A DNA stretch of 64,000 bases from Escherichia phage vB_EcoM-RPN242 (OL656110.1), one strand, 5' to 3'; shown: positions 15,417-54,705, numbered from the stretch's first letter. Translations and numbers: made by a program. The notes: a model not told the origin generated them from the letters alone.

Positions 15417-15758
15417 ATGAAACGTTCGGTTGTTGTAAATGACATCACGAGATTGATAAACCTTGTCAAAGATGTGTTTCCACAACAGGTGGATGTCGAG
15501 TACGTGGGGAAGAACGGGAAGTGTTACCAGGTCGCCCTGTTGTTGAAGCACGTGTATCCCCAAGCAGAGATCCATTACAGTCAGACCGAAGGTCATGTGT
15601 ATACTCTGATTGATGGGCATTACTACGACATCGAAGGCATCCACTTCAGTGTCCCACCGGACACGTGTTTGCTCGAACACAACAGAGGTCACAAACCACA
15701 TCGCTGGCATAAAGGGTTTGTGAACGTACCGATTTTAGAATGGTTGAGGAGACCATAA
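15417..15758 (+). CDS. hypothetical protein
   Basis: ATG 15417 with SD GGGAGAGG; His-rich C-terminal half. Confidence 0.45.
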
Positions 15759-17036: not shown

Positions 17037-17351
17037 ATGACCCCATTAAAAGAAATGTATGAGCGTCTGGCTGAACTACAGGCGAAGGAAAAGCGCTTCT
17101 CAGAAGAAGAGACAGAGCTGTCCGAGCTGAACACTTTGATCGCCACTCGCGAGAAGTACCTGCAGCGCTACATTAATCACCCGCCGCGCATGGTAGACCG
17201 CGTCAGCACTATCATGGACCTGGATGAAGTTACTCCTGGCAAAGAAATCATTGCCAGGGAAGTCCACCAGATGGTCGCCATGGGTCAGATCTTTGGTCGT
17301 GCAGACCAAGACGACATGATCTTCCTCCTTGAAAAGAAACTGGTGATGTGA
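17037..17351 (+). CDS. hypothetical protein
   Basis: 104-aa ORF with SD AGAGGAA. Confidence 0.5.
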   Translation: MTPLKEMYERLAELQAKEKRFSEEETELSELNTLIATREKYLQRYINHPPRMVDRVSTIMDLDEVTPGKEIIAREVHQMVAMGQIFGRADQDDMIFLLEKKLVM

Positions 17352-17857
17352 TGGCTATCAAACCCCGTATGTTATTTGCGCATATGCGCTCGGCTCATGC
17401 ATACGCTCTGTCCAGCTATGCCCAGCGCCTGAAGGTCGGCTGTGTTATCGTTGACCCGCGTGTTGACCAGCCCCTGTCTATCGGTTGGAACGGGACTGCT
17501 CCTGGCGCTCCTAATGTCTGTGAGAAGGAAGTAGACGGTCAACTGGTATCGGTGGGTGTTATCCACGCCGAGGAGAATGCTCTGAGCAAACTCCCCCAGC
17601 ACACTGAAGACTGTTGTGGCCTGGTGATGTTTGTCACTCATAGTCCATGCCCAGAGTGCACCCGTCGTATTATCGACAGTGGCAAGATCGCTAAAGTGTT
17701 CTATGACCGACCATATCGTATCATAGACGGCATTATTGAAATGCTGGATGCTGGGATTGAAGTATATCGCATGGTCGATCAGATTGTTGTAGTCCAGCAT
17801 TCTGTGAAGAGCGGCGAACTGGTATCCACCCCTGTTTTAGTGAACCCTGACAAATAA
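17351..17857 (+). CDS. cd: dCMP deaminase
   Basis: zinc-binding deaminase motifs HAEENAL and PCPECTRRI; ATG 17351 overlaps upstream stop (TGATG). Confidence 0.85.
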   Translation: MAIKPRMLFAHMRSAHAYALSSYAQRLKVGCVIVDPRVDQPLSIGWNGTAPGAPNVCEKEVDGQLVSVGVIHAEENALSKLPQHTEDCCGLVMFVTHSPCPECTRRIIDSGKIAKVFYDRPYRIIDGIIEMLDAGIEVYRMVDQIVVVQHSVKSGELVSTPVLVNPDK

Positions 17858-17867
17858 GGAATTTATC

Positions 17868-18275: not shown

Positions 18276-18277
18276 TC

Positions 18278-18490
18278 ATGATCATTTCAGGTTACACCAT
18301 CGATCTTTATTGTGAATGCTCAGATTGCAAGGCATGCAGTTGGGCTTGGGAAGAGCATCACCCCAAGTGCGGGTTCAAACAATACACTGGTGAGACTTGG
18401 GGTGAGTGTGTCAAACAGGCGCGATCAGACGGCTGGCAAATTGGGCGCGACAGGCATACCTGTTACGCCCCTGGCCACAAGAGAAGTTAA
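18278..18490 (+). CDS. hypothetical Cys-rich small protein
   Basis: 70 aa with CECSDCKAC and further Cys/His. Confidence 0.45.
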   Translation: MIISGYTIDLYCECSDCKACSWAWEEHHPKCGFKQYTGETWGECVKQARSDGWQIGRDRHTCYAPGHKRS

Positions 18491-19101
18491 GGTAAGAGCA
18501 GTCCATCATCCCGCTCCGTTGGGGCGGGTTTAATCTCCTTCCGCATCTGTTCCTTCAGCACCCTGACACGTTCGGCATGTCGGCGATCTTGCATCTCCAT
18601 ATCCCGTTTCTTTTTCGACTTCAGCTCAAACTGTTTACGAACATCCGGATCTTCACCCGGAACAAGATGCTCTTCGGTCCATATAATGAACTTCCAGTTC
18701 TTCTTGGCACACAGTTCGCGGGTGGCCTCCCACTTGGCAGAGTTGACCAACCAGGTTCGCATCGCATTGTTGAATGTCGACTCCTTCATGTTCGGAGTCT
18801 TCTTCGGCTGCTTGATCTGGTCTTTGGGCTTGATCTCAATGAGGGTGACCTGTAGTTCCTCTTGCCCTTCGCGGCGCGTCCAGACCTTGAGGTCCATGAA
18901 GTAACGATGGGTGCGCCCGTCGACTGGGGAAATGTAAGGGATTACGGTCTCCTCACTAGACCACTTCACTATCGCGGAGTTCATATCACAGAACTTGAAA
19001 GCCACCAACTCCAGCGAAGAGCGGAAGATGATGTTATTCACATTCCCCTGATACTTCTTGGGATTAACTGGGGTGTACTTCCCCTGAAGATAGTTGCTCA
19101 T
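18487..19101 (-). CDS. head completion protein (T4 gp4-like), putative
   Basis: N-terminal pattern YQGNVNNIIFRSSLEL...VKWSSEETVIPY...DGRTHRYFMD...IEIKP resembles my recollection of the gp4 family; SD AGGA; diverges from the baseplate block as in T4. Confidence 0.55.
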   Translation of the reverse strand: MSNYLQGKYTPVNPKKYQGNVNNIIFRSSLELVAFKFCDMNSAIVKWSSEETVIPYISPVDGRTHRYFMDLKVWTRREGQEELQVTLIEIKPKDQIKQPKKTPNMKESTFNNAMRTWLVNSAKWEATRELCAKKNWKFIIWTEEHLVPGEDPDVRKQFELKSKKKRDMEMQDRRHAERVRVLKEQMRKEIKPAPTERDDGLLLP

Positions 19102-19151
19102 AATCTAGTCCTAAATAGCCATAACACTCTATCTATTTAAGGGCTGAGACC

Positions 19152-20120
19152 ATGGCCGACTTCAAGAAGACAATCGATAAGATCAAGGTTCTGAACACGA
19201 AGGGATTGTCCCAGGCTCAGAAGCAATTGTCTTATCCCCTGGACGTCACTGGGGGTAAGACTTTAGGACACTATGTCCTATTCAACATCAACCGTATCTC
19301 CGGTTCATCTTATGGCAACACGGCTACTCAGACTATCGAGAACCCAATACAGAACCCTCTGGGGAATACTCCTGTGGTCTATGGGTCCAAGTCTGGTTCC
19401 ATCACCAAATATGCATGGGCGCGTCACGTTCGTTCAAACGAGTCTATCGTACTTTGTATGCCCGAGTACATTACAACCAACTATGGTGTTGGCTGGAACG
19501 GTAGCGAGCTGGGGTTGGCTGGTATGGGAGCACAGTTCCTTTCCCGCGCCGCCCAAGACATGACTCAGTTTAAACTGGGTGATGCGCTCAACGTCGGGAA
19601 GGAGATGGGGCGATTCGCTGCCACCAAGGCTATCCAATCTGCGTCGGAGGCTATTCCATTCCTGCCGAGCATTAACGCCCATGACACCCTTGAGTTGTTC
19701 ACAGGCACCATGACCAACCCATATGTGGAGATGATCTTCCAGGGTGTTCGCAACCGTGAGATTCCATTTACATTCAAATTCACGCCGCGATCTCAGAAGG
19801 AAGCCAAGATGGTCCGTGAGATCATCCGCATGTTCAAGATGCACATGTACCCAGAGTACAAGTACAACAAGAATTCCAGCGCGTTTTACTTGCATCCTTC
19901 AACATTCGACATTACGTTCATGGTCAATGGGGGGCGTAACCAGTGGCTGCACCGCATCTCCACTTGTGTACTTTCCAACATGTTCGTCAACGAGACGCCG
20001 GACAGTTCATACGCGGTTCACAAAGATGATGGTATCGTGTCCACGCAGGTTGACATGACCTTCATCGAACTGGAGCCTCTACACAAAGGGCGCTTTGAAA
20101 CCGAAGGCGATAGCTTCTAA
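19152..20120 (+). CDS. baseplate structural protein (position of gp53-like wedge component), putative
   Basis: 322-aa ORF opening a plus-strand block that ends with a tape-measure-like gene; no recognisable motif. Confidence 0.4.
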   Translation: MADFKKTIDKIKVLNTKGLSQAQKQLSYPLDVTGGKTLGHYVLFNINRISGSSYGNTATQTIENPIQNPLGNTPVVYGSKSGSITKYAWARHVRSNESIVLCMPEYITTNYGVGWNGSELGLAGMGAQFLSRAAQDMTQFKLGDALNVGKEMGRFAATKAIQSASEAIPFLPSINAHDTLELFTGTMTNPYVEMIFQGVRNREIPFTFKFTPRSQKEAKMVREIIRMFKMHMYPEYKYNKNSSAFYLHPSTFDITFMVNGGRNQWLHRISTCVLSNMFVNETPDSSYAVHKDDGIVSTQVDMTFIELEPLHKGRFETEGDSF

Positions 20121-20131
20121 GAGAGGATGCC

Positions 20132-20686
20132 ATGAAATATTTTGAGAAGTTTCCACTTGTTTGGCATCAATTGCAAGATGTCCAAGAGAATGATCAGGTG
20201 CTGTTACAGAACTTAACGCGCCGGGTGATGATCTTACAGAAAATTAAGGACATCGAAGGGCTTCTCCTGCCGTATACGATCCAAGATGGGGAAACCCCAA
20301 GGTCTTTCGCAGAACGCGTTTACGGATCCTTCGAGTTGTTTTGGATACCTTGTCTGATAAACGGCATCATGGACATCAATAAGGACTGGCCGAAACCGGA
20401 ACGCCGTATTGTTGAAGAACTGACTGCAGATTACGGCATCGATGGTATGTGGGATACAGCCTATTATGTCGACCAGTTCAACAATGTGACCGACGCCCGT
20501 GCTATCAAATTTGCATATAACCTAGACCTGGATGAGCCGTCCATAATTGCTAACTATGGCCTGACGGCAGTTTCATACCATGATGATGCAATCAGTAAGA
20601 ATGAAGCCAAACGGAACATCCAAGTACTCGACCCGGATTATGTGTCTTCGTTTGTCAATCAGCTGGAGCAGGAGTTGGCGAAATGA
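20132..20686 (+). CDS. hypothetical baseplate-associated protein
   Basis: 184-aa ORF with SD GAGAGGA; in baseplate block. Confidence 0.4.
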   Translation: MKYFEKFPLVWHQLQDVQENDQVLLQNLTRRVMILQKIKDIEGLLLPYTIQDGETPRSFAERVYGSFELFWIPCLINGIMDINKDWPKPERRIVEELTADYGIDGMWDTAYYVDQFNNVTDARAIKFAYNLDLDEPSIIANYGLTAVSYHDDAISKNEAKRNIQVLDPDYVSSFVNQLEQELAK

Positions 20687-22071
20687 TCGAAAACAGAGAG
20701 ACCCAAGACGGTATTGTAACACCGTCAACAACATTTGACCTGAAGTATATGGCGATCCTCCCTCATACACCCCAGGGTGGATCACCAACGCCATATGACC
20801 TGACGGCGTTGTTTGAGGAGTTCAACGTCTTCCAGGATCTGGGTCTTGAAGGGAAGTCATCTCCATCACTTACAGCCAATGTCTTGATAAAAGAAGGGTG
20901 GGACATTCTTGACACAATGCCTATCTTGGGTGGTGAAGAAGTTGTGGTGTCATTCAAGAGTCCGGCGGCCTCGGATTACACCACTCTCTCCCTGCGCGTA
21001 GCGCGTGTTGGGCGCGTAGCTGATGAGTCCAACAGCTCGTCCAAGAAAGCATTCTGGTTGCACATGGTGACCACCGATGCCTACAAGGACAGCATGATCC
21101 GATGCTCCCTCGGTCTTGACGGTTCGTATTCTGACATGGCGAAGACAATCTTCAATCAGCTGGAGTCGCACACCAAGTTCGAAGACATCGACCCGTCGTA
21201 TGGAATTCAAGAGCGGTTCGCCACCCCGCTCTGGCCTGTGCTGCGATCTATTGATTATATGGCGAGCCGTTCTTATGACGAATTGTTCATGCCATTCGTG
21301 TTCTATGAAGACTTCAATGGCTATCACTTCAAGAGCCTGACGACGTTGTTCAACCAGGGTAGCCAGTCATTGACAGCAGAAGAGAAGCAGGAACTAGCTC
21401 AGCAGAACAAGTTGTTCCGTGATCCTCAGGACGCGCCGCTCATGCAGGATAACAACTTCAACTCTGAACGCTTTATGCGCACGATCATCAAGGCAGAGAA
21501 GAAGCTGGCGCGTGACCAGTTCATGGCAAACTACCGCGATGTCCTGGCGGTGAACGAGCGCGTCTACGACTTTGAGACCAAGACAGTCACCCCAACACAG
21601 CGCATCTATACTGAGTGGTTTGCAGAGACGGCTCACCTTGATCCGTTCCCGATGTTCTCAGATGAATTCAATCGTCAGAACGTCCGTTACATTGAAGCCC
21701 AGCCGGATGGAGCGGAGCAGATTGATTATGCTCGTCGTGTTATCAACTTCAGTCTTGCCAGCACTGTGATGCGCGTGTTGCTCGTTGGTGATAACCGCCT
21801 GAACGTCGGTCAGGTGTTCTACGTCGAAGACCAGTCCAACCGTCCTAAGAAGAACGAAAACCTGGCAGAGTTAAGTAAGCTATCGACAGGCCACTATATC
21901 GTGACCAAAGTGCGTCACAAGATTTCCCGCCTGACCAAAGATTATCAGTGCATCGCTGAGATTGCCAAGGACAGTTTGCTGGAGCAGGTGCTTCCACCTC
22001 AGACCAATCAGACAACTGCTTCCACCACTACTCATCAGGCGATTGAGAAAGGCCAAGCACAGAAGGTTTAA
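20683..22071 (+). CDS. baseplate hub-like structural protein, putative
   Basis: 462-aa ORF immediately upstream of the tape-measure-like gene; SD GGAG. Confidence 0.4.
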   Translation: MIENRETQDGIVTPSTTFDLKYMAILPHTPQGGSPTPYDLTALFEEFNVFQDLGLEGKSSPSLTANVLIKEGWDILDTMPILGGEEVVVSFKSPAASDYTTLSLRVARVGRVADESNSSSKKAFWLHMVTTDAYKDSMIRCSLGLDGSYSDMAKTIFNQLESHTKFEDIDPSYGIQERFATPLWPVLRSIDYMASRSYDELFMPFVFYEDFNGYHFKSLTTLFNQGSQSLTAEEKQELAQQNKLFRDPQDAPLMQDNNFNSERFMRTIIKAEKKLARDQFMANYRDVLAVNERVYDFETKTVTPTQRIYTEWFAETAHLDPFPMFSDEFNRQNVRYIEAQPDGAEQIDYARRVINFSLASTVMRVLLVGDNRLNVGQVFYVEDQSNRPKKNENLAELSKLSTGHYIVTKVRHKISRLTKDYQCIAEIAKDSLLEQVLPPQTNQTTASTTTHQAIEKGQAQKV

Positions 22072-22082
22072 CGAGGTGACCC

Positions 22083-24029
22083 ATGGCACAGGAAGCAACG
22101 AACAATGATGTTGTCAAAGTTCTAGACAAGATCAAGGCGGAGATGATGCAGCGCAAACAACTCCGTGCTCAGAATGAAACCAACAAACAGCTTGACCGGA
22201 TGAACAAGAATCTGGCCAAGCTGGAATCTGCCACCAAACAGGGCACCAAGGCCGAGTCCAAGCCATTTGAAATCCGTATCCCGACAGTCAATGAGATCGT
22301 CATGGGATTCGCTCGCATGTCTCCGATCTTCACCCGCGACTTCAGCGTATGGATGAAGGATACTGTCGATGTGGGTAACGAAGGCAATCGGGAACTGGAG
22401 AATATCGCAGGCAAGATTGACCGCCTCGGTGAGATCACCCGCATGCCAACAGATGACACGTCCCTGGAGTATCTTAACCTGATCTCAGACCAGCTGAAGT
22501 CTGCCAATGATGACACCCTCAAGCGCATGGACGAGCAGAGTGTGTCTCTGATCCGCGTGGGATCATTCTTGAACATGATCGACGGAGTGATAATCGAGGT
22601 TCGTGACGATGTTGCTGAACTGAAAAAGAACTCCGATGACACCCTTACTCGCTTGTCTAGCATTGAAAACAAGATTGGGCGCACGGGCGGTCATATCGTT
22701 GGAGTGCTGACACGCATCTTTGATGAAGACCAGAAGTGGCGTGAGAAGGACGAGATGCGCCGTGGGGAAACCGACAAAGAAACGGGTGGTCATCCTCAGG
22801 CGGGTTCTGTTATACCCAAAGACGATGACCAGAAAGACGATTCCTCCGGTATCGGGGCTGCTGTGGCGGCCATGCTTGGCCTGAATGCACTGAAGGGCTT
22901 CTTGCTCAAGCCGTTCAAGATCATCGGTGGTGTTGTCGGGACTTTCCTCGGCATGTTTTCCAAGCTGGGAGAAGGTATCACCAAACTTCTGGGTCCATTT
23001 GGGAAGGTGTTCAAGTTCCTGAAAGTCGGCCCACTGGCTCTCCTGTCTATGATCTGGGACTTCGGTAAAGGCTTCATTGATGCGAAGGAGATCCTGGGTA
23101 AAGGTGCTGTCACGATAGTTGACCGAGTACGGGCGGGGATATCAGAACTGGTTGGTGGATTTGGTGATCTATTTGACTGGGTGTCCAAGATCTTTGGCTT
23201 TGATACCAAGGCGGGAGAAACCCTGCGCAAATACACCCTCATGATCACTGAGGCTCCCGCTCGTTGGCTGAATGGTATTATCGACTGGATTAGCAACGAC
23301 TTGTTTGCAGGGATCGGGAGAGACACGTCTCTTACTGATATCCCTGGCAAGTTAGCAGACAACCTACAGTCCGAGTTGACAAAGCTGGTAGACTGGATCA
23401 CAGGGGGTATCAGTAGTGTGATCGACGATGGCATGGGTGTGGCCAACAAGGTCATTGACGATATCAAGAAGGGATTTGCCGAAAATGTGAAGAAACCTTT
23501 CTTCAACATGCTGAACACAATCACCAATGCGATGTTCGATATCGTTGACAAGTTCGTCAGCATCATCCCTGACGCTCTGGGTGGACAGGCTGCGAAGCAG
23601 AAGATGGATGAGGCTCGCCAGTCTATGCTGATTGACACTGATGAGAATCCGTCTCCTAATGTGACAGAGACCCAGCAGCCACAGACGCCAGCACAACCGA
23701 ACATCGATCCACAAACGCTGACTCCAATACCTTCTGGTGCGTCTTCGGATGACAAGAATATGACTAATGACCGCACCTCTCAGCTGAAAGCTGCGTATGG
23801 TTCTATCGGGGGCGGTACTCTGGGCGGGGCCATGCCATCACAAGGTAGGGCGCTGTCTAATATTGAGCAAGTACAAGGCGGCTATTCACCGCCTCCAGCC
23901 AGCGTCGTGATGCCAGTACAGCAGAATGTGGATGCTTCTAAGAGGATCAACACGACCAATAACTTCAACAGCTCATATCTTGAGCCTGAGAACAAAACAG
24001 ATAATTCCCGCATCCTGTGGGAATGGTAA
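22083..24029 (+). CDS. tail length tape-measure/baseplate hub protein (gp29-like), putative
   Basis: 648 aa; N-terminal coiled-coil-like region, central Gly-rich hydrophobic stretch (GIGAAVAAMLGLNALKGFLL...), Pro/Gln-rich C-terminal region. Confidence 0.5.
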   Translation: MAQEATNNDVVKVLDKIKAEMMQRKQLRAQNETNKQLDRMNKNLAKLESATKQGTKAESKPFEIRIPTVNEIVMGFARMSPIFTRDFSVWMKDTVDVGNEGNRELENIAGKIDRLGEITRMPTDDTSLEYLNLISDQLKSANDDTLKRMDEQSVSLIRVGSFLNMIDGVIIEVRDDVAELKKNSDDTLTRLSSIENKIGRTGGHIVGVLTRIFDEDQKWREKDEMRRGETDKETGGHPQAGSVIPKDDDQKDDSSGIGAAVAAMLGLNALKGFLLKPFKIIGGVVGTFLGMFSKLGEGITKLLGPFGKVFKFLKVGPLALLSMIWDFGKGFIDAKEILGKGAVTIVDRVRAGISELVGGFGDLFDWVSKIFGFDTKAGETLRKYTLMITEAPARWLNGIIDWISNDLFAGIGRDTSLTDIPGKLADNLQSELTKLVDWITGGISSVIDDGMGVANKVIDDIKKGFAENVKKPFFNMLNTITNAMFDIVDKFVSIIPDALGGQAAKQKMDEARQSMLIDTDENPSPNVTETQQPQTPAQPNIDPQTLTPIPSGASSDDKNMTNDRTSQLKAAYGSIGGGTLGGAMPSQGRALSNIEQVQGGYSPPPASVVMPVQQNVDASKRINTTNNFNSSYLEPENKTDNSRILWEW

Positions 24030-24695
24030 TCAGATTCCGTGGGCTTGTATTAGCTCACGGAGTCTCTGTTTTGAATATGTGGTATCCTCATCCGGAACCA
24101 CAGCATTCGTCTTCCTGAGCAAGAACGCCTCTGAGTTCCAGTAGATGTCATCACGCAGAATCGTATCGTATAGATGAATGAAACCAACGATCTTGTTCAG
24201 ACCGACAAGGAACCAAATCGGGAACTTCTTGACGATGATGTCTGTCAGCAACGGTGGATGACCTGTACCCGTCCCCTTGATGTACTCAATGAAGGTGCAG
24301 TTGCGCTCCCTTATGGCAGGGATCATTTCCCGTTCGAACTCCTCAAGGAAGTTATATGTGAAGTTCTCGTACAACTTACGGTATTCATCATAATTGGCCT
24401 GAGCCTGGCGTGTAAGCAATGTCGTCACCCAGGTCTTGGGTGATTTGATGAAGTTGGCAATGATGTAGTTCTCTACCACTTCACCCTGTGATGACTCGAA
24501 TCGACGGGCAAGGCGAGCAAACTGTTTGCACACGGCCTCCTTCGCCAAGAACGTCTCGAACTTGTAATTCATCGGTCCATACAAGCTGTAATCGAAGTCC
24601 TTAGTGGTGAAGTGCAGCTTGATCGCCATGAAGACACAGTAAACGTTGAACGCCCGCTCGAACTGCATTTTTTCCCAATCGGTATACTCACGCAT
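24030..24695 (-). CDS. helicase loader (gp59-like), putative
   Basis: 221 aa (T4 gp59 is ~217 aa); N-terminal VYCVFMAIKLHF...FARLARRF pattern resembles recalled gp59; strong SD GAGGAA. Confidence 0.4.
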   Translation of the reverse strand: MREYTDWEKMQFERAFNVYCVFMAIKLHFTTKDFDYSLYGPMNYKFETFLAKEAVCKQFARLARRFESSQGEVVENYIIANFIKSPKTWVTTLLTRQAQANYDEYRKLYENFTYNFLEEFEREMIPAIRERNCTFIEYIKGTGTGHPPLLTDIIVKKFPIWFLVGLNKIVGFIHLYDTILRDDIYWNSEAFLLRKTNAVVPDEDTTYSKQRLRELIQAHGI

Positions 24696-24782: not shown

Positions 24783-25382
24783 TCATTTCGGCGCGATCCA
24801 CCCCAATTCCTTGACCATCGTTACATTTCGACATATGCCTAACCTGGCACCATCGGCTACCCACCAATCATAGAATATTCCTGCCAAAGCCCAATATTTG
24901 CGGGTATGCGTCGCATTTGGACTTTCCCAAGGCTTTGAATGGATTTGTTTTAATTTGGAACGTTGTGAATCTGATTTGGGTCTGCCCATCAGCGAATCGG
25001 AAATTTTCGATCTGTGTTCACGGGATAACGCCACCCCCTTGAATCTTTCACTGCATTTTTGTTTAAACTCTGGAGTGCTGTTAGCTGTCTTCACCCTTTC
25101 CCATTTTCTGAGAGCGAACTCTTCGTATTGGCGTGAAGTTTGTGATTTTGATATATTTCTCATCAAAGAAAAGATTTTCACGTATGCAGGAGACATACTG
25201 AATATCTTGGCCAAAAGTTTGTGAACTATGAAATGTTCCCGAGCAGTTAGAACAGCAATATTCTCCGCAGTATCAGCCCCTCCCAAGCTCCTGGGTTCTT
25301 TATGGTGTCTTTCTGAATACCCAATCAGATTGCGAGAATAAGACCTTTCAAGGATAGAAACCAACGCTCGGGTATAGTTCAT
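24783..25382 (-). CDS. HNH homing endonuclease with NUMOD-like motifs
   Basis: HNH core ERHHKEPRSLGGADTAENIAVLTAREHFIVH; C-terminal PWESP...YWALAGIFYDWW parallels ORF 8421-9251. Confidence 0.75.
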   Translation of the reverse strand: MNYTRALVSILERSYSRNLIGYSERHHKEPRSLGGADTAENIAVLTAREHFIVHKLLAKIFSMSPAYVKIFSLMRNISKSQTSRQYEEFALRKWERVKTANSTPEFKQKCSERFKGVALSREHRSKISDSLMGRPKSDSQRSKLKQIHSKPWESPNATHTRKYWALAGIFYDWWVADGARLGICRNVTMVKELGWIAPK

Positions 25383-31427: not shown

Positions 31428-31757
31428 TTACCCCACCAAAAATTTATTATATTCCTGAGCATTACGCTGCATGAGGTCTACAAGGATATCCCCTGACACC
31501 TCAGTGAACAAGTCATTTTCTTTCAAATTCACAAACATCAGACGCAATGGTTTATTCAATATATCAGTCACGAAAGACAGGCGGGGTTCGCCGTCCACTT
31601 CGTTGATGGCCACCTTGCCGAACCGGAATTGAACACCACGGAATTTGCCAGAAGTGATCTTGATGATCGCCAGCTGATCAGCACCAGGGTCGATGATTGT
31701 GTAGTTATTGGGGGAGTCTCCTCCCCCTCCACTGTTATTCGCTTGTGTTAATAACAT
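31428..31757 (-). CDS. hypothetical protein at the T4 gp40 position
   Basis: ATG 31757 (aa 18 of track ORF); Gly-rich N-terminus; between uvsX and gp41. Confidence 0.4.
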   Translation of the reverse strand: MLLTQANNSGGGGDSPNNYTIIDPGADQLAIIKITSGKFRGVQFRFGKVAINEVDGEPRLSFVTDILNKPLRLMFVNLKENDLFTEVSGDILVDLMQRNAQEYNKFLVG

Positions 31758-32820
31758 GGTCCATTTGCTCCAGCATGTTACCAGGCATAACAGTACCGTT
31801 AGAAACACCGAACATTTTCTTCACGTCATCGGCGAAGTTGACATTCTCCAGCAGCGGATACCAGAAATCATCATCCATCTGACGCTTCTGATATTTCTTT
31901 TCCTTCTCAGGATCGAAACCACCCTTGGCTGTACGCACATACCAACCGGAAGACGGCATATCAACATAACCCAGAGCACGAGCGATCTCAAGCAGGCCGC
32001 TCCAGCGATCAATACCACCGTTGTACAGTACCGTCACAGGGAGCTTGGCTTTCTCTTTGACATGGCGACCTTTCATGATGCTTATGTTGAAGTTCCAACC
32101 CAGCAGATCTTTGTCTTCCTTCACCTGAGAACGGGTGATAAACCAGATCAAGTTGGAGGATAAGAAGCCCTGTTTGCCGCCTTTGATGTTAGGCTCGGCA
32201 TATTGGTTGCCGATCTCATCGTAATAGGAGTTGATCCAAACACACACGAGATTTTTGCTGTTGATTTCGGGAGTCATGACACGCCAGAAGCTGTTAAGGG
32301 CACGGGCGCGGGTCATGTCCTGAGTGTCGTTCCCTTTGATCGCATCTTCAACTTCCTTGGTGGAGGGAAGTTGGCTGATAGAGTCGATGAAGATTATAAC
32401 ATGGTCGCCTTTCTTGACTTCCTGTAGGATCTGCAGCAAGCGGATCTTGGTCTGTTCAACGTTGTCGATCGGTACGTACAGGACGCGGTCCATGTCAATG
32501 CCCATAGAGGTCCAGTAATCGGCGTTGGCACCCTTTTCTGAGTCAGCAAATACACAGATAGCGTCAGGGAACTTGTCCATGTACGCCTTGACGTCCACCA
32601 GACCGAACATCGTTTTGAAGGTACGGGAATCACCCACCATCATCTTGATACCGGAGATCAGACCGCCGTCAATACGCCCAGACCATGCGATATCGATCAG
32701 GGGAATACCAGTAGAACAGATGATAGACGGTTCCAGAGCGTCGGATTTGGACAGCACTGAAGCCTGGTCATCGTGTTTCTTAGCAACCTTCAGCATGCGG
32801 TCCATTAATGAACTGGCCAT
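31735..32820 (-). CDS. uvsX: RecA-like recombinase UvsX
   Basis: 361 aa; clear similarity pattern to T4 UvsX (DSRTFKTMFGL, VIIFIDSISQL, KGRHVKEKAKL); SD GAGGAA. Confidence 0.9.
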   Translation of the reverse strand: MASSLMDRMLKVAKKHDDQASVLSKSDALEPSIICSTGIPLIDIAWSGRIDGGLISGIKMMVGDSRTFKTMFGLVDVKAYMDKFPDAICVFADSEKGANADYWTSMGIDMDRVLYVPIDNVEQTKIRLLQILQEVKKGDHVIIFIDSISQLPSTKEVEDAIKGNDTQDMTRARALNSFWRVMTPEINSKNLVCVWINSYYDEIGNQYAEPNIKGGKQGFLSSNLIWFITRSQVKEDKDLLGWNFNISIMKGRHVKEKAKLPVTVLYNGGIDRWSGLLEIARALGYVDMPSSGWYVRTAKGGFDPEKEKKYQKRQMDDDFWYPLLENVNFADDVKKMFGVSNGTVMPGNMLEQMDHVINTSE

Positions 32821-33347
32821 TTCACTTCCTCTTTATTGTTGATCGTCGTTAATAATTCTACACCCATAACCTTCTGGGACAAAATGTTAACCGCCTCTTG
32901 GATGCTCTTCAGGGACATTGTCTCAACAAGTGACGATGCGTCATTATGCCGGTCGGTTAGGTACATATTGCGCAGATTGTTGTAGTTCGTGCGGTTGATG
33001 CACGCAGTGTTCAGTGCTATATTCAGGATATACATCATCTGTTCAATGGTTACATCCTTTGGCATAGCGTGGATGTAATAGATCGAGCCTTCAAAATAGA
33101 CGTCTACCAGTTCATCTGGTATCTTGATGCCACCACCGGCATACTCTTCGATCATCCTGAACAGAGACTCTGGTTGCTCGCTGGCGATCTTATGCGTAAC
33201 AGTCGCCGAAAGACCGTCGCCTGGTTTAACAGGCCTGTTGTATTCAGTAAGGAATACATTATGTCCGCCGCCGATGATGTGCTCGGCGAATTTGGAGGAT
33301 GCCTGAGCAGCGTTCTCCGCATGGTATGAAACGACGACTGTAAACAT
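32805..33347 (-). CDS. hypothetical protein at the T4 beta-glucosyltransferase position
   Basis: 180-aa ORF; TAATG-coupled to the downstream nucleotide-modification operon. Confidence 0.5.
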   Translation of the reverse strand: MFTVVVSYHAENAAQASSKFAEHIIGGGHNVFLTEYNRPVKPGDGLSATVTHKIASEQPESLFRMIEEYAGGGIKIPDELVDVYFEGSIYYIHAMPKDVTIEQMMYILNIALNTACINRTNYNNLRNMYLTDRHNDASSLVETMSLKSIQEAVNILSQKVMGVELLTTINNKEEVKWPVH

Positions 33348-33901
33348 TAGAACTCCAGGGTCAGAGGGGTTTCTGCGGACTTATCGTAATCCGCGCCACC
33401 AGCAGCACGCAGGCGATTGCGATCGTTCTTGCGTTTGTGTGCCAATATGTAAGTCTCAATGTCGATCTCCATATAAGAACACGCAGACGACAGGAAGAAC
33501 ATGAGAGTCTCAACGCAAGGATCGTTCATGAATTGCCCAAGGCGGTACGTAACATTGCGATGCCCTACAACACCCAAAGCAGATGGGGTGAATTCGCGAT
33601 TACTAAGGACTTCAAATTCTTCTTCGATCTCACCTTTGGTGCGGTCCACAAGGATGAAGCACAACATGAAGTGTACCACGTCCACCAGTTCATAAACTGC
33701 GTTCGTATGGTCAAACCCGATGTCGTTGCCATAGACCTTCCAGTCACGGGTGGTTTCATCAAGGAACTCTGCCCACTCACGATAGATGGAGTTGATGACT
33801 GCGTTCTGACTCCATACATTCTTCCACTCTTCCCCAAAGTAGGCCACGTTGGTGGCCTTTTGGAGTTCGAGCAGGCTTTTGATATGTCCTGCTGTGATCA
33901 T
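33347..33901 (-). CDS. all-alpha dimeric dUTPase/dCTPase-family NTP pyrophosphatase (gp56-like), putative
   Basis: 184 aa; conserved acidic/aromatic helix segments typical of dimeric dUTPase family as recalled; ATGA-coupled upstream of dNMP kinase. Confidence 0.5.
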   Translation of the reverse strand: MITAGHIKSLLELQKATNVAYFGEEWKNVWSQNAVINSIYREWAEFLDETTRDWKVYGNDIGFDHTNAVYELVDVVHFMLCFILVDRTKGEIEEEFEVLSNREFTPSALGVVGHRNVTYRLGQFMNDPCVETLMFFLSSACSYMEIDIETYILAHKRKNDRNRLRAAGGADYDKSAETPLTLEF

Positions 33902-34467
33902 TTACGTTCTCCGTAGAATTTAACGAACGGTTCCCAACCATCAAATGGATTGAGGAATTCGTAGTCCACTTTCATTTGGTCAATGAAAGCCTCTATATCG
34001 TCCTCTATGATACCAGCACGGTCGGCCTTTGAAATACGGGTGATAGGACATTTCGTACTCAGCGCCCATTCATATTCCTGAGGGGTACGCAGATCGCTCA
34101 CGATATAATGGACGTGGGGGTTCTGCTCTACCAGAGGAAGCTGGAAGCGCTTGAAGAATGCCAGGAACAGATCGGGTTGTACGTAACGCAAGCCCGTATC
34201 GCTGCCTAGATGAAGCCAGATCTGCCGTGGAGTTAAGCCCTTGGGGTTATCAGGGTGGGTGTAAGGAACGTCCTTCACGGCATCCTCTACCTCCGCTGGG
34301 AGCCATGGGTAGATGTAGTTGGCTACACGGCGCAGTTCATCAGAGAAAGAAAGGCGCTGTATGTCCATATCACCCTGTAAGTGGTGATAACTGATCAGGG
34401 ACTCCAAACAGAAGTCCTTACCGGAGCGTTTGCGCCCCGTAAAGAATTCAAGATTTGGGTACATCAT
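33898..34467 (-). CDS. 1: deoxynucleoside monophosphate kinase (T4 gp1-like)
   Basis: P-loop FTGRKRSGKD matches T4 gp1 LSGVKRSGKD. Confidence 0.8.
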   Translation of the reverse strand: MMYPNLEFFTGRKRSGKDFCLESLISYHHLQGDMDIQRLSFSDELRRVANYIYPWLPAEVEDAVKDVPYTHPDNPKGLTPRQIWLHLGSDTGLRYVQPDLFLAFFKRFQLPLVEQNPHVHYIVSDLRTPQEYEWALSTKCPITRISKADRAGIIEDDIEAFIDQMKVDYEFLNPFDGWEPFVKFYGERK

Positions 34468-35510
34468 ACTACACCTTCCAGGAACTTAGGATCAACGATC
34501 TTGCGGTCAACCGGAGAATGGGTGAGCGCGGTGTTCAAGCCATGATCCTGAATCAGGTCCAGGTTAATGAGCTTTTCGTTCAGTTTGCAGTGCAGACAGT
34601 ACGCCATCTGTACAATCAGGCCGCGATCCGCATCGTATTCCTTCAGGTGGGCGACCACAGTTTCCCAAGGGCTGCCGATATCACAGTGATGAAGCACGCC
34701 AGTGAACAGATTGCGGATATGGTTCTGGTTGGTCACGTTCTTGAAGTGAATCATGGAGTTGATGAACCCAGCTTCTACTTTGGTGTCCTTCGTGATCTTT
34801 CCCAGCTGCTTCTGGCTGACTTCATTGTTGTAGTAATGAAGATTGTTAGAGAATAGCTTGTACTGACCGACATCAACATCCAGCACCCGAGCAATCACTT
34901 CCTGAAGAATAGAGAACTCAATGAAGTTGATTGAACTCATCCCCCACAGAACATCCTGTGAGCGATTGATGACCGTCAGGTTCAGACGACCTTCAACGAT
35001 GGCGAACAACAGAGCCAGGTTACACACCATGTCCTTAGTCTTCGCTTCGCCGCTCTCGCTGAACTTCGCCAGACCAGCATCCGAATCTAGAGCCGGGTCA
35101 TAGATGGTGAGGTACGCCTGGCGAGTGTTTGGGTTCTTGCGCAGGCGGTTAATAACGCTATCCAGCTGGCCATGGGCGTACAGACGCGGACCATAAGCAG
35201 CTCGCCATGTTACCCCATCATCCGAAAAGTTAGCAGCGCGAGGCAATACGCGTGACAGGAACTTTATGTCGTTGCGGCCTGACAACACCCAGAAGGTCTC
35301 GCCGATGGCAGCGATAGCCGATGAGTTGCGACCTTCAATAGAGAGCCAGCGGTCACGGATGTCGGCGACGGTTATGGTCACGCCATCAAGGAAGCGGGTG
35401 CTATCAGTATTGATTTCAGCATTACCAGGATCAGATTCGATCCCGAATTCACGGATAGCCAAGACAGCCTGCTTCAGCATGTCATTGTTGTTAATTGCTT
35501 TGATTTCCAT
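34464..35510 (-). CDS. thymidylate synthase-family enzyme, uracil-type (TS or dUMP hydroxymethylase)
   Basis: TS motifs GETFWVLSGRND, NPNTRQAYLTIYDP, catalytic Cys in KDMVCNLALLF, RSQDVLWGMSSINFIEFSIL, LHYYNNE (Asn as in dUMP-specific enzymes); ~80-aa C-terminal extension. Confidence 0.8.
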   Translation of the reverse strand: MEIKAINNNDMLKQAVLAIREFGIESDPGNAEINTDSTRFLDGVTITVADIRDRWLSIEGRNSSAIAAIGETFWVLSGRNDIKFLSRVLPRAANFSDDGVTWRAAYGPRLYAHGQLDSVINRLRKNPNTRQAYLTIYDPALDSDAGLAKFSESGEAKTKDMVCNLALLFAIVEGRLNLTVINRSQDVLWGMSSINFIEFSILQEVIARVLDVDVGQYKLFSNNLHYYNNEVSQKQLGKITKDTKVEAGFINSMIHFKNVTNQNHIRNLFTGVLHHCDIGSPWETVVAHLKEYDADRGLIVQMAYCLHCKLNEKLINLDLIQDHGLNTALTHSPVDRKIVDPKFLEGVV

Positions 35511-36169
35511 CAGATACTCCCAAAATCACGACAGAGGAATGCCATCACAGCCTGGTCTACTGTTAGGCCGTGAGACTTCATCATACCCGCAGCCACCGTA
35601 GGGAACAAGTCTTTATGTCGTTGACGATGGTCATGAACTCTCTCCCACTTCTCGACCACCAGACTTTCATTGAAGTCCACACCACCGTTACGTGATTTAA
35701 CGCGGGAGATACACGTTTCAAGGGGAGTGTCCATAAAGAGCACAACCAATTCACGTGGTGGGCGTGTCAGGCGGGGGATCCAAGAACTCAATAATGTTGA
35801 TGGAATGATACCTTCGAAAATCACATCATATTTCAAGTATTCTGGTTGGTCAGCAATAGACAACGCGAACAACATCTGCTCAGTGTCCTTCAGGGAATCA
35901 ACCCCCTTGGACTTCGACTTGTCATATTTACCGATACAGACCACGTTGAACGAAGGACAGACAGTCAGCATGACCTTGCCGTTATGGGTCACGACATACG
36001 CCTGAGGATCCCTCTCCGCCAGCTGAGAAGGCACAGTGGATTTACCGCTACCATTGGAGCCTTTGACGTAGTAGATTTGCCCTCGTGCTGGGTAGATCCC
36101 CTTTACGACGGGTGGTTTAAAGAATGTGTGGACGGGGCGCTTCATCAGCCCCTTCAGGGAGTAGGACAT
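35510..36169 (-). CDS. P-loop kinase, candidate 5-hydroxymethyl-dU DNA kinase
   Basis: ATG 36169 with SD GGAG (track start is TTG); Walker A GSNGSGKST; stop overlaps TS-family start (TGATG). Confidence 0.55.
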   Translation of the reverse strand: MSYSLKGLMKRPVHTFFKPPVVKGIYPARGQIYYVKGSNGSGKSTVPSQLAERDPQAYVVTHNGKVMLTVCPSFNVVCIGKYDKSKSKGVDSLKDTEQMLFALSIADQPEYLKYDVIFEGIIPSTLLSSWIPRLTRPPRELVVLFMDTPLETCISRVKSRNGGVDFNESLVVEKWERVHDHRQRHKDLFPTVAAGMMKSHGLTVDQAVMAFLCRDFGSI

Positions 36170-36244
36170 AAACTGCTCCAATAAACAAAAGGAGCTGCTA
36201 TTATAGCAGCCCCTTCATCTATTGAACAGTTTCTGAACTTAAAT

Positions 36245-37081
36245 CTACACAGCTTTCGCTTCAGCCAGAGCCTGTGGAAGCCATTCATTGATCGCCTTAA
36301 CCAGAGACTCAGCATCAGACTCTTTGATCTTCTGACGTTTGGTGAAGGACTTACCGTTCACGTACAGACTGAAGCCCCAGCCACCGGAAACGATAGGCGC
36401 AACGTCGACATACGTATTGGTGCGGGCGTGAAGGTTTTCAGGGTTAGCCAGTTCGGTGACCGGGAACTGGAACCAACGCATGTCTGGGTTCACGTAGCTC
36501 AGGAACACGCCGGGAACAACACCAGCTTCAATCGCCGCCAAGACCGGACCGTGATTAGAAGCGCGAGCCAAGTCAACCATTTCCTCACGTTTGGTGTGAC
36601 GGCGTTTACGCTCTACCAGCGCCGCCTGCGGGGTCAGGGTCTTACCCTTCGATGCTTCTTTCAACATAGAAGACGCCAAGGAACCGATTTTCGCGTCGGA
36701 CGGCTGATTGCCTTCTTCCAGCGCCGCGTTGACTGCATCTTCAACCGCGTCTACCGGGGCGTCGGACACTGGGGCTTCACATGCATCGGCAGAGATCGGT
36801 GCTTCAGCATCAATGGTTTCAGCGACTTTCAGCGATACTTCAGCTTGGGCTTGCTCTTGGGCTTGCGCCAGAGCCTGCTGAGTTTCTTCCTTCTCTTCGG
36901 CGCTCAGACCTTCAATCAGTTCGAAGCCGTTGGCAGCCTGAAGAACACCTTCAACCATACGGCGCAGGGTAACGTTTCCGATGATCAGACCTGCTTCTTT
37001 GATTTCAGCCTGAATAGCAGCAACGTCTTTGCCTTCAATTTCAATTTTGGTTCCAGAATCCACATGAAGAATATATGACAT
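36245..37081 (-). CDS. hypothetical protein with acidic Ala/Glu-rich linker
   Basis: 278-aa ORF; low-complexity central region; conserved-looking C-terminal domain. Confidence 0.5.
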   Translation of the reverse strand: MSYILHVDSGTKIEIEGKDVAAIQAEIKEAGLIIGNVTLRRMVEGVLQAANGFELIEGLSAEEKEETQQALAQAQEQAQAEVSLKVAETIDAEAPISADACEAPVSDAPVDAVEDAVNAALEEGNQPSDAKIGSLASSMLKEASKGKTLTPQAALVERKRRHTKREEMVDLARASNHGPVLAAIEAGVVPGVFLSYVNPDMRWFQFPVTELANPENLHARTNTYVDVAPIVSGGWGFSLYVNGKSFTKRQKIKESDAESLVKAINEWLPQALAEAKAV

Positions 37082-37151
37082 AATAAAAACCCTTTCGTTA
37101 TTAAGACCGTATCCGCGGCATATTGTTGTTCTGACTGTGTAGTGAGAACAT

Positions 37152-37179
37152 AATATACTGCATTTTCATAGATGTAAAC
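37152..37179 (-). promoter_or_regulatory. candidate sigma70-like promoter (GTTTAC, 16-nt spacer, TATATT)
   Basis: minus-strand -35 at 37174-37179 and -10 at 37152-37157 in a 176-bp intergenic region. Confidence 0.2.
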
Positions 37180-37257
37180 TACTTTTTATTGAAAAGAAAG
37201 TTAACACCTAAGTGTTATAAGGTGCGCGACCAAGCGGAGCGCGAACTTGCGTGAATA

Positions 37258-54642: not shown

Positions 54643-54705
54643 GGTAATCTCCTACCAAAAATCTGAATGGGAGGGGAGGTAACTCCCCTTTGTTACACGT
54701 CGGGA

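What the first reader, a model, noticed from the sequence alone, without database searches (positions are those of the whole stretch)
32805..36169. Translationally coupled pyrimidine-modification operon in place of T4 beta-gt/gp42
Directly downstream of uvsX, where T4 has beta-glucosyltransferase and dCMP hydroxymethylase, five minus-strand genes are chained by 1-4 nt start/stop overlaps: an unknown 180-aa protein, a dimeric dNTPase-like protein, a gp1-type dNMP kinase, a TS-family enzyme and an unusual P-loop kinase. The TS-family enzyme keeps the catalytic Cys and an Asn-containing LHYYNNE motif (uracil-type specificity) and has an ~80-aa C-terminal extension. This layout fits a phage that replaces thymidine with a 5-hydroxymethyl-dU-derived base and modifies it further after replication. 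The unknown flanking genes (32805-33347 and 36245-38315) could be novel modification enzymes.
Basis: partly seen in the sequence, partly recalled or inferred. Interest (0 to 1): 0.85.

Follow-up and report, generated by a model that had tools for sequence, protein, structure and literature searches.

The report
Known phage thymidine-hypermodification operon

Summary
Five minus-strand genes at 32805-36169 are chained by 1, 4, 4 and 1 nt start/stop overlaps. The chain continues into uvsX, a small ORF and gp41.

The window is an Agtrevirus-like Ackermannviridae phage, 98% identical to Escherichia phage vB_EcoM-ZQ1. The "unusual P-loop kinase" matches Pfam PF18748 (5-hmdU DNA kinase, E 4e-109). 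It is 88% identical and syntenic to Salmonella phage ViI gp67, whose activity on 5-hmdU DNA has been shown experimentally.

The TS-family enzyme keeps the catalytic Cys163 and an invariant Asn195. It falls far below NCBIfam's cut-offs for true thymidylate synthases. Its model matches the hydroxymethylase MilA over its full length, C-terminal extension included.

The other three genes are:
- a T4 gp1-type dNMP kinase
- a dimeric all-alpha dUTPase-like hydrolase
- a small ACT-like protein (Pfam PF24021) of unknown role

The later ViI pathway enzymes (gp247, gp226, gp243, gp160) are outside the window but present in ZQ1. The likely product is therefore 5-NeOmdU, not measured here.

The upstream unknown genes are separated from the operon by a conserved terminator. 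Nothing marks them as enzymes.

Verdict: already known, ordinary for this phage family.

The parts
35510..36169 (-). 5-hydroxymethyl-dU DNA kinase (5-HMUDK), orthologue of ViI gp67. Walker A motif GSNGSGKST at residues 37-45.
   Evidence: PF18748 HMUDK_HMUD1, E 3.8e-109, 363 bits against a cut-off of 27. 88% identity over 219 aa to ViI gp67, in the same position in ViI. ATG at 36169 is preceded by GGAG.
34464..35510 (-). TS-superfamily enzyme, predicted dUMP hydroxymethylase (MilA-like architecture). TS core is about residues 1-250; a helical C-terminal domain covers 262-338.
   Evidence: PF00303, E 1e-15. NCBIfam ThyA equivalogs score 58 bits or less against cut-offs of 108-427. Best PDB sequence hit is MilA CMP hydroxymethylase, E 1.4e-17, against 4e-9 or weaker for true TS. 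AF2 model pLDDT is 93. Foldseek top hit is MilA over 348 columns, TMq 0.73; true TS align over only about 244 columns, TMq about 0.53. C163, R183, D186, N195, H225 and Y227 are invariant.
33898..34467 (-). T4 gp1-type deoxynucleoside monophosphate kinase, predicted to convert 5-hmdUMP to 5-hmdUDP.
   Evidence: phrog_139, E 2e-47. T4 gp1 itself falls in phrog_139, E 2e-65. The P-loop GRKRSGKD matches T4 GVKRSGKD, and YIVSDLRTPQE matches YIVPDTRQDHE. There is no direct PDB hit.
33347..33901 (-). Dimeric all-alpha dUTPase-like nucleoside triphosphate pyrophosphohydrolase. Predicted to supply dUMP and keep dUTP, and possibly dTTP, out of DNA.
   Evidence: PF08761 dUTPase_2, 36.7 bits against a cut-off of 22.9. 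phrog_173, E 3e-40. Best PDB hit is the Campylobacter dimeric dUTPase 1w2y, with E42/E45 and E71/D74 aligned to its ExxE...ExxD acidic residues.
32805..33347 (-). ACT_phage protein, function unknown. N-terminal 110 residues are ACT/ferredoxin-like. The last 16 nt overlap the uvsX start.
36170..36235 (-). Conserved intergenic hairpin. The upper stem is a 13-bp terminator-like stem-loop at 36216-36188 followed by a U-run. The lower stem pairs with the GGAG ribosome-binding site of the kinase gene.
   Evidence: Terminator scan. RNA fold gives -35.4 kcal/mol, z = -6.4, with 0 of 200 shuffles as stable. Nearly invariant among the window, ViI, LIMEstone1 and L011. Annotated as a factor-independent terminator in LIMEstone1.
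31735..32820 (-). uvsX recombinase, the next gene in the same overlapping chain.
   Evidence: PF00154 and PF21134. 16-nt overlap with the ACT-like gene.
17351..17857 (+). dCMP deaminase, elsewhere in the window. Predicted supplier of dUMP for the hydroxymethylase.
   Evidence: PF00383, E 4e-16. The role in the hmdU pathway is as described in PMC8989533 and is an inference here.

Best explanation
The five genes are the Ackermannviridae (ViI-type) thymidine-replacement module. It combines the pre-replicative 5-hmdUTP supply line with the first post-replicative enzyme.

Proposed sequence of steps:
1. dUMP is supplied by the dUTPase-like hydrolase here and by the dCMP deaminase at 17351-17857.
2. 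The TS-family enzyme hydroxymethylates dUMP, using methylene-tetrahydrofolate and water.
3. The gp1-type kinase makes 5-hmdUDP, and host NDP kinase makes 5-hmdUTP.
4. The phage polymerase incorporates 5-hmdU in place of T.
5. The 5-HMUDK then phosphorylates the hydroxymethyl group in DNA with ATP, giving 5-PmdU.
6. Genes outside this window then act. The gp247 orthologue (an aGPT-Pplase2, serine:DNA transferase) makes O-serinyl-T. The gp226 orthologue (a PLP decarboxylase) gives 5-(2-aminoethoxy)methyl-dU (5-NeOmdU) on part of the T positions.

What is shown and what is inferred:
- Shown here: gene identities, orthology, synteny, conserved coupling and active-site residues.
- Shown elsewhere for the ViI orthologues: the kinase, transferase and decarboxylase activities, and the base itself.
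- Inferred: hydroxymethylase rather than methylase activity, the substrate of the dNMP kinase and of the dUTPase-like enzyme, the final base in this particular phage, and any role of the ACT-like protein.
For: - The region is 98.2% identical to Escherichia phage vB_EcoM-ZQ1 (Ackermannviridae, Aglimvirinae), and homologous DNA is found in 266 phage records.
- The kinase matches PF18748, E 4e-109. It is 88% identical to ViI gp67.
- ViI has the identical gene order: uvsX, 057c, dUTPase, dnk, thyA, gp67.
- ViI gp67 phosphorylates 5-hmdU DNA; gp247 and gp226 complete 5-NeOmdU (PMC8989533).
- ZQ1 carries gp247 (89%), gp226 (91%), gp243 (47%) and gp160 (82%) orthologues.
- The TS-family enzyme has invariant C163 and N195. 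It fails the ThyA equivalog cut-offs. MilA hydroxymethylase is its best sequence and structure match, including the C-terminal domain.
- Its nearest non-Ackermann phage homologues are in PaMx11/M6-like and SPO1-like phages.
- The dNMP kinase shares phrog_139 with T4 gp1.
- The dUTPase_2 family match and acidic metal ligands are present.
- The same order and overlaps are seen in a relative whose ACT protein is only 42% identical.
- The same gene set is already noted in Aglimvirinae phage SW16-7 (PMC10458263).
Against: - No chemistry was done on this phage.
- The transferase and decarboxylase genes are not in the 64-kb window. They are inferred only from a 98%-identical relative.
- No sequence signature cleanly separates hydroxymethylases from methylases. 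A one-residue insertion makes the N195 alignment slightly ambiguous.
- In ViI only about 40% of T is replaced, and about 16% in a Taipeivirus. How the remaining 5-hmdU becomes T is unknown (PMC5889632), so the scheme is incomplete.
- No promoter for the operon was identified. A terminator sits immediately upstream.
Confidence: 0.9

Rival explanations
1. Ordinary thymidine nucleotide metabolism, as many GenBank records annotate it: a true thymidylate synthase, a thymidylate kinase, a dNMP kinase and a dUTPase, making canonical dTTP.
For: GenBank labels include 'putative thymidylate synthase', 'putative thymidylate kinase' and 'tk'. PF00303 is matched. There is a weak hit to phrog_761 thymidylate kinase, E 2e-6.
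Against: The kinase scores 363 bits on PF18748 and has no significant thymidylate-kinase Pfam match. Its ViI orthologue acts on DNA, not on free nucleotides (PMC8989533). The TS-family protein scores 58 bits or less against ThyA equivalog cut-offs of 108-427 bits and resembles MilA more than any TS. Family members carry 5-NeOmdU.
Confidence: 0.03
2. The module works as described, but this phage stops at 5-hmdU or 5-PmdU, or makes a final base other than 5-NeOmdU, because its downstream enzymes differ or are missing.
For: The gp160, gp226, gp243 and gp247 orthologues are not in the window. The second kinase is only 47% identical between ZQ1 and ViI and carries an extra N-terminal 235 aa in ZQ1. 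No Aglimvirinae DNA chemistry turned up in the literature searched.
Against: ZQ1, 98% identical here, has the serine transferase and PLP decarboxylase at 89% and 91% identity to the ViI enzymes. A review states that the pathway genes are conserved across the family (PMC11721090).
Confidence: 0.06
3. One reading: the ACT-like protein and/or the upstream unknown genes (36245-38315) are additional, novel modification enzymes of the pathway.
For: The ACT-like gene is translationally coupled inside the chain, and this is conserved in all relatives seen. The step that converts 5-hmdU to T in DNA has no known enzyme (PMC5889632).
Against: ACT_phage has a generic ligand-binding fold with no catalytic match. 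It occurs in 269 phage records, all with enterobacterial-type Ackermannviridae names, whereas 5-HMUDK occurs in 404 records that also include Vibrio, Pseudomonas, Bordetella and Bacillus phages. Five ViI proteins that include none of these suffice to reconstitute 5-NeOmdU in lysates (PMC5889632). The upstream genes lie behind a terminator, the nearest has its own promoter, and none has a family or PDB match.
Confidence: 0.07
4. The 219-aa protein is a small terminase subunit, as RefSeq re-annotation says.
For: The label of phrog_800 is 'terminase small subunit', E 2e-68, and RefSeq records carry that name.
Against: The match covers only profile positions 4-220 of 511. PF18748 gives 363 bits, and kinase activity is proven for the 88%-identical ViI gp67. 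The genuine terminase small subunit sits next to the large subunit elsewhere in the genome (ViI Vi01_162c; ZQ1 gp16).
Confidence: 0.01

Closest known systems
Salmonella phage ViI (Kuttervirus) thymidine-hypermodification genes: Vi01_057c-061c (gp67 5-HMUDK cluster) plus gp160, gp226, gp243 and gp247, giving 5-NeOmdU (Lee et al. 2018, 2021)
   Same: Identical gene order and 1/4/4/1 overlap pattern. The kinase is 88% identical. The intergenic terminator is nearly identical. The remaining pathway genes are present in the 98%-identical relative ZQ1 at 47-91% identity.
   Different: The genus and subfamily differ (Aglimvirinae rather than Cvivirinae). The ACT-like protein is only 55% identical. The final base has not been measured for this lineage.
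T4 hydroxymethyl-dC module: gene 42 dCMP hydroxymethylase, beta-glucosyltransferase and gp1 dNMP kinase
   Same: The map position next to 41-40-uvsX is the same. Both use a TS-family hydroxymethylase (22% identity across the catalytic core) and a gp1-type kinase in the same PHROG. The logic is the same: modified dNTP first, then modification on DNA.
   Different: The pyrimidine is uracil (Asn195) rather than cytosine (Asp179 in T4 gp42). The DNA-level step is phosphorylation followed by amino-acid transfer, not glucosylation. The hydroxymethylase has the MilA-type C-terminal domain, which T4 gp42 (246 aa) lacks.
5-hmdU phages and their derivatives: SPO1/SP8 (hmdU), PhiW-14 (putrescinyl-T), SP10 (glutamyl-T), M6 (5-NedU), PaMx11 (N-alpha-GlyT/5-NmdU)
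   Same: All pair a dUMP hydroxymethylase with, in the hypermodifying phages, a 5-HMUDK. Homologues of the window's hydroxymethylase (33-37% identity) and kinase (27-34%) are found in these phage groups.
   Different: Their TS homologues match only the core, about 55-68% of the query. The downstream enzymes and final bases differ. The ACT_phage gene is absent from them.
MilA, CMP 5-hydroxymethylase of mildiomycin biosynthesis (PDB 5jnh, 5b6d)
   Same: It is the best sequence match (E 1.4e-17) and the best structural match over the full length, including the C-terminal helical domain (TMq 0.73, TMt 0.80). It is a proven hydroxymethylase, not a methylase.
   Different: Identity is only 20%. MilA acts on CMP and has Asp where the window protein has Asn195. 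It is a bacterial antibiotic-pathway enzyme.

Membership tests
5-HMUDK (Pfam PF18748, ViI gp67-type 5-hmdU DNA kinase) | Full-length match to the family HMM above the curated cut-off | tested here: met
   363 bits against a cut-off of 27, covering profile positions 1-195 of 196.
5-HMUDK (Pfam PF18748, ViI gp67-type 5-hmdU DNA kinase) | P-loop (Walker A) NTP-binding motif | tested here: met
   GSNGSGKST at residues 37-45 of the 219-aa protein.
5-HMUDK (Pfam PF18748, ViI gp67-type 5-hmdU DNA kinase) | Orthology and synteny with an experimentally characterised member | tested here: met
   88% identity over 219 aa to ViI gp67 (YP_004327432). It sits in the same position next to the TS-family gene. 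The activity of gp67 is reported in PMC8989533.
5-HMUDK (Pfam PF18748, ViI gp67-type 5-hmdU DNA kinase) | ATP-dependent phosphorylation of 5-hmdU within DNA | not testable with these tools
   Needs an enzyme assay on 5-hmdU DNA.
dUMP hydroxymethylase (thymidylate synthase superfamily) | TS fold and family HMM | tested here: met
   PF00303, 58 bits against a cut-off of 24.3. AF2 model pLDDT is 93, and Foldseek matches to TS and MilA have probability 1.00.
dUMP hydroxymethylase (thymidylate synthase superfamily) | Catalytic nucleophile Cys (E. coli C146 position) | tested here: met
   C163 aligns with the TS 'PCH' Cys and is invariant in 34 homologues.
dUMP hydroxymethylase (thymidylate synthase superfamily) | Asn at the pyrimidine-specificity position (Asn in uracil enzymes, Asp in dCMP/CMP hydroxymethylases) | tested here: met
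   HMMER aligns N195 to the Asn of the TS 'PFN' motif. N195 is invariant. A one-residue insertion relative to TS, T4 gp42 and MilA leaves slight ambiguity.
dUMP hydroxymethylase (thymidylate synthase superfamily) | Product is 5-hmdUMP rather than dTMP | not testable with these tools
   Only indirect evidence is available: the closest structure is the hydroxymethylase MilA, the gene sits next to 5-HMUDK, and relatives carry a 5-hmdU-derived base.
Canonical thymidylate synthase ThyA (NCBIfam equivalogs) | Score above the equivalog cut-off | tested here: not met
   Best scores are 57.9 bits against 327 and 52.8 against 174.55.
T4 gp1-type dNMP kinase | Same protein family as T4 gp1 | tested here: met
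   The window protein hits phrog_139 at E 2e-47, and T4 gp1 hits phrog_139 at E 2e-65 over the same profile region.
T4 gp1-type dNMP kinase | Direct pairwise or profile similarity to T4 gp1 | tested here: inconclusive
   BLASTP matches only the P-loop, E 0.003. hhalign gives probability 25%, E 8e-4, on the YIVxDxR motif. phmmer finds no PDB hit.
Dimeric all-alpha dUTPase (Pfam PF08761) | Family HMM above cut-off and conserved acidic metal ligands | tested here: met
   36.7 bits against 22.9. E42/E45 and E71/D74 align with the acidic pairs of the Campylobacter dUTPase 1w2y.
Dimeric all-alpha dUTPase (Pfam PF08761) | Substrate (dUTP, dTTP or both) | not testable with these tools
   The NCBIfam dUTPase equivalog scores far below its cut-off, 29.6 against 300. 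Specificity is unknown.
Complete ViI-type 5-NeOmdU pathway | aGPT-Pplase2 serine:DNA transferase and PLP decarboxylase encoded by the same phage | tested here: inconclusive
   They are absent from the 64-kb window. They are present in the 98%-identical phage ZQ1 at 89% and 91% identity to ViI gp247 and gp226. The rest of this phage's genome was not available.
Complete ViI-type 5-NeOmdU pathway | 5-NeOmdU in virion DNA | not testable with these tools
   Needs nucleoside LC-MS.
ACT_phage (Pfam PF24021) | Family HMM and an ACT-like beta-alpha-beta-beta-alpha-beta fold | tested here: met

The most novel reading that the evidence does not exclude
The small ACT-like protein (32805-33347) may be a ligand-sensing partner. 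It is wedged by start/stop overlaps between the nucleotide module and uvsX in every enterobacterial Ackermannviridae phage, but is absent from all other 5-HMUDK phages. It could set how much 5-hmdU is made, or how much of it is hypermodified rather than returned to thymidine. That would bear on the unsolved questions of partial (16-40%) replacement and of the 5-hmdU-to-T conversion. The conserved hairpin that both terminates upstream transcription and masks the kinase's ribosome-binding site could be part of the same timing control.
Probability: 0.08. Interest if true: 0.5.

Novelty: already known. Interest (0 to 1): 0.12.

Why it matters
The module explains why DNA of these therapeutically used phages (Agtrevirus, Kuttervirus, Limestonevirus, Taipeivirus) resists most restriction enzymes, and possibly other DNA-targeting defences.

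For this window the practical points are:
- The phage almost certainly carries hypermodified thymidine. This affects sequencing, cloning and restriction mapping.
- Many database records mislabel the DNA kinase as 'thymidylate kinase', 'terminase small subunit' or 'baseplate hub', and the hydroxymethylase as 'thymidylate synthase'.

Nothing here changes current understanding of the pathway.

Tried and rejected
- ViI gp160, gp226, gp243 and gp247 were searched against the window by tblastn. Only gp67 hit, so the later steps had to be checked in the relative ZQ1.
- Loci fetched by accession (ViI, LIMEstone1, L011) did not reach the Python sandbox. A sliding-window comparison of coding and intergenic conservation was therefore not done.
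- The dNMP kinase gave no PDB hit. Its homologue search found only 13 close relatives, so the profile comparison with T4 gp1 stayed weak. PHROG co-membership settled the question instead.
- PDB sequence searches for the 278-aa and 249-aa upstream proteins found nothing. Pfam and NCBIfam found nothing, and PHROGs gave only unknown-function families.
- Rfam gave no family for the window or for the conserved hairpin. One sub-threshold chance hit appeared at E 0.09.
- A promoter inside the hairpin (TATAAT in the loop) was considered. I found no acceptable -35 box or T4-type middle or late consensus by eye, and the scan reported no site there. This is left open.
- The context look-up for a bacterial TS-family homologue (P0086) failed.
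- Two apparent orphan ORFs came from my own ATG-only ORF picker. 14106-14969(-) is antisense to dexA/Tk.4 and is an artefact. 54667-55329(+) lies in well-conserved DNA annotated as hypothetical.

Full report
**What is in the sequence**

Five minus-strand ORFs occupy 32805-36169:
- 219 aa at 35510-36169
- 348 aa at 34464-35510
- 189 aa at 33898-34467
- 184 aa at 33347-33901
- 180 aa at 32805-33347

All start with ATG. Successive stop and start codons overlap by 1, 4, 4 and 1 nt.

The 180-aa gene overlaps uvsX by 16 nt, uvsX overlaps a 109-aa ORF by 23 nt, and the gp41 helicase follows 7 nt later.

The same order and the same overlap pattern occur in Salmonella phage ViI. They also occur in a metagenomic relative whose 180-aa homologue is only 42% identical. 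The arrangement is therefore a conserved feature, not a coincidence.

T4 has 41-40-uvsX-(segA)-beta-gt-42 at the equivalent place, so the positional comparison with T4 is correct. Transcriptionally, however, the five genes lie upstream of uvsX.

**What phage this is**

The region is 98.2% identical to Escherichia phage vB_EcoM-ZQ1 (Ackermannviridae, Aglimvirinae). It is 96.5-98% identical to other E. coli and Enterobacter phages of that group, about 92% to Shigella phage Ag3, and 89% to the Dickeya Limestoneviruses. In all, 266 phage records match. The window begins exactly at the rIIA start codon.

**The kinase**

The 219-aa protein matches Pfam PF18748 (5-hmdU DNA kinase) end to end, at 363 bits and E 4e-109. 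It has a Walker A motif, GSNGSGKST.

It is 88% identical over its full length to ViI gp67, which occupies the same position in ViI. Purified ViI gp67 and its homologues transfer the gamma-phosphate of ATP to 5-hmdU in DNA (PMC8989533).

The RefSeq name 'terminase small subunit' comes from the label of phrog_800 and is wrong. The real small terminase lies beside the large one elsewhere in the genome.

**The TS-family enzyme**

It matches PF00303 but falls far below every NCBIfam ThyA equivalog cut-off: 58 bits or less against 108-427.

Its best solved relative by sequence is MilA, a CMP 5-hydroxymethylase, at E 1.4e-17. True thymidylate synthases score 4e-9 or weaker.

A high-confidence AlphaFold model (pLDDT 93) superposes on MilA over all 348 columns, the helical C-terminal domain (residues 262-338) included. 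The scores are TMq 0.73 and TMt 0.80. Thymidylate synthases align over only about 244 columns, with TMq about 0.53. The 'C-terminal extension' is thus real, but it is a trait of this MilA-like clade rather than an oddity of this phage.

Across 34 homologues down to 30% identity, the invariant residues include C163, R183, D186, N195, H225 and Y227. HMMER aligns N195, in GMSSINF, with the Asn of the TS 'PFN' motif. T4 gp42 and MilA have Asp at or next to that position.

It rests on N195, not on the Asn residues of LHYYNNE (224-230), which is the H/Y motif.

The nearest non-Ackermann phage homologues are in PaMx11/M6-like Pseudomonas phages and SPO1-like Bacillus phages. These are groups known for 5-hmdU or its derivatives (PMC5889632, PMC8989533).

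Hydroxymethylase rather than methylase activity is strongly implied but not proven.

**The other three genes**

- The 189-aa protein belongs to phrog_139 (E 2e-47), and so does T4 gp1 (E 2e-65). It shares the GxKRSGKD P-loop and a YIVxDxR motif with gp1. Direct pairwise and profile comparisons are weak.
- The 184-aa protein matches PF08761 (dimeric dUTPase). It aligns its E42/E45 and E71/D74 pairs with the acidic residues of the Campylobacter enzyme. Its substrate range cannot be told from sequence.
- The 180-aa protein is not an orphan. It is Pfam PF24021 'ACT_phage'.

More on the ACT-like protein:
- Its N-terminal 110 residues model confidently as a beta-alpha-beta-beta-alpha-beta ACT/ferredoxin-like domain. 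The C-terminal helices are uncertain.
- The family is tiny: 14 clusters in 5.8 billion proteins and 18 representatives in 1.84 billion, with no informative fusion.
- It is found in 269 phage records with enterobacterial-type Ackermannviridae names, always between the dUTPase and uvsX.
- 5-HMUDK occurs in 404 records, including Vibrio, Pseudomonas, Bordetella and Bacillus phages that lack the ACT-like gene.
- It is therefore not a core part of the hypermodification chemistry. Its role remains unknown.

**The rest of the pathway**

ViI gp160, gp226, gp243 and gp247 have no counterpart in the window. This is expected from their map positions in ViI.

In ZQ1 they are present at 82%, 91%, 47% and 89% identity respectively. 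In ViI, gp247 transfers L-serine to 5-PmdU, and gp226, a PLP enzyme, decarboxylates the product to 5-NeOmdU (PMC8989533).

The base is documented for ViI and CBA120 (PMC5889632, PMC11721090) and for a Taipeivirus (bioRxiv 10.64898/2026.05.19.726188). The same gene set has been listed for the Aglimvirinae phage SW16-7 (PMC10458263).

The window also encodes a dCMP deaminase at 17351-17857 and a MazG-like pyrophosphatase at 7843-8424. Both fit the published pre-replicative scheme.

**Boundaries and expression**

A 13-bp GC-rich stem-loop followed by a U-run lies at 36216-36188, between the upstream 278-aa gene and the kinase. The full intergenic RNA folds into a longer hairpin of -35.4 kcal/mol (z -6.4), whose lower stem pairs with the kinase's GGAG.

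This 75-nt spacer is almost invariant among the window, ViI, LIMEstone1 and the divergent contig L011. The few changes convert G-U pairs to A-U pairs. LIMEstone1's curated record annotates it as a terminator and places an early promoter upstream of the 278-aa gene's homologue. The window has a 10/12 sigma-70-like site at 37178-37150.

The 278-aa gene thus looks like its own early transcription unit. The three upstream ORFs have no Pfam, NCBIfam or PDB match and fall only in unknown-function PHROGs. I found no support for the suggestion that they are modification enzymes.

How the operon itself is transcribed was not resolved. It could be by read-through of the terminator or from an unrecognised phage promoter.

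**Verdict**

The feature is the already described ViI-type thymidine-hypermodification module, in a phage nearly identical to sequenced isolates.

The remaining uncertainties are:
- the actual base in this lineage
- the origin of the residual thymidine
- the role of the ACT-like protein

These are open questions for the whole family, not discoveries of this window.

Noticed in passing
window 36170-36235 (-): The 75-nt spacer before the kinase gene is almost invariant across genera: the window, ViI, LIMEstone1 and a divergent metagenomic contig. It folds into a long hairpin (-35.4 kcal/mol, z -6.4). The top of the hairpin is an intrinsic terminator and the base pairs with the kinase's GGAG ribosome-binding site. 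TATAAT sits in the loop. It may be a timing or translation switch; no Rfam family matches it.
   Followed up: partly
window 35510-36169 (-); RefSeq records NC_015296, NC_013693, NC_019910 and others: The 5-hmdU DNA kinase is widely mislabelled in public records as 'terminase small subunit' (from the phrog_800 label), 'thymidylate kinase', 'tk' or even 'baseplate hub'. The hydroxymethylase is labelled 'thymidylate synthase'.
   Followed up: yes
window 36245-37178 (-): The 278-aa protein has an acidic, Ala/Glu-rich low-complexity middle. It has its own sigma-70-like promoter (TTTACA-17-TATTAT at 37178-37150) and the terminator at 36188-36216. It looks like a monocistronic early unit of unknown function. 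LIMEstone1 annotates the same layout.
   Followed up: partly
window 32805-32830 (-): The invariant C-terminal peptide of the ACT-like protein (…NNKEEVKWPVH) is encoded by the same nucleotides that form the uvsX ribosome-binding site and start codon (AGGAAGTGAAATGG). Its conservation may therefore reflect dual constraints.
   Followed up: partly
window 8421-9251 (+) and 24783-25382 (-): Two ORFs match homing-endonuclease PHROGs (phrog_655, E 1e-65 and 9e-43). The first lies between the MazG-like gene and topoisomerase II. ZQ1's annotated table lists no CDS in the corresponding gap.
   Followed up: partly
L008 (ZQ1) 22876-24474: In ZQ1 the orthologue of the second ViI kinase (gp243) is annotated as a 532-aa 'putative homing endonuclease'. 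Residues 238-532 are the kinase (47% identical to ViI gp243). The N-terminal 235 aa are extra, which suggests a fusion, an intein-like insertion or a mis-called start.
   Followed up: no
L008 (ZQ1) 17202-21384: The ZQ1 DNA polymerase is annotated in three pieces with an intervening 879-bp ORF. This suggests an intron or homing-endonuclease interruption just upstream of the second hypermodification gene cluster.
   Followed up: no
proteins P0071, P0078, P0085, P0086 and P0060-P0134: The MilA-like TS-family clade also has bacterial chromosomal members (Klebsiella, Rhizobium, Paenarthrobacter, Herbiconiux; about 38-46% local identity over roughly half the query) and many 470-590-aa forms in metagenomes. 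Their contexts were not examined; one look-up failed.
   Followed up: no
window 17351-17857 (+), 7843-8424 (+), 15740-16318 (+): Other nucleotide-metabolism genes are scattered through the window: a dCMP deaminase (PF00383), a MazG-like pyrophosphatase (phrog_1247) and a phosphoesterase (phrog_547). The first two fit the published hmdU supply scheme.
   Followed up: partly
window 1-2757 (+): The window starts exactly at the ATG of rIIA. It is therefore probably the first 64 kb of a deposited genome that is numbered from rIIA, as ViI is.
   Followed up: no
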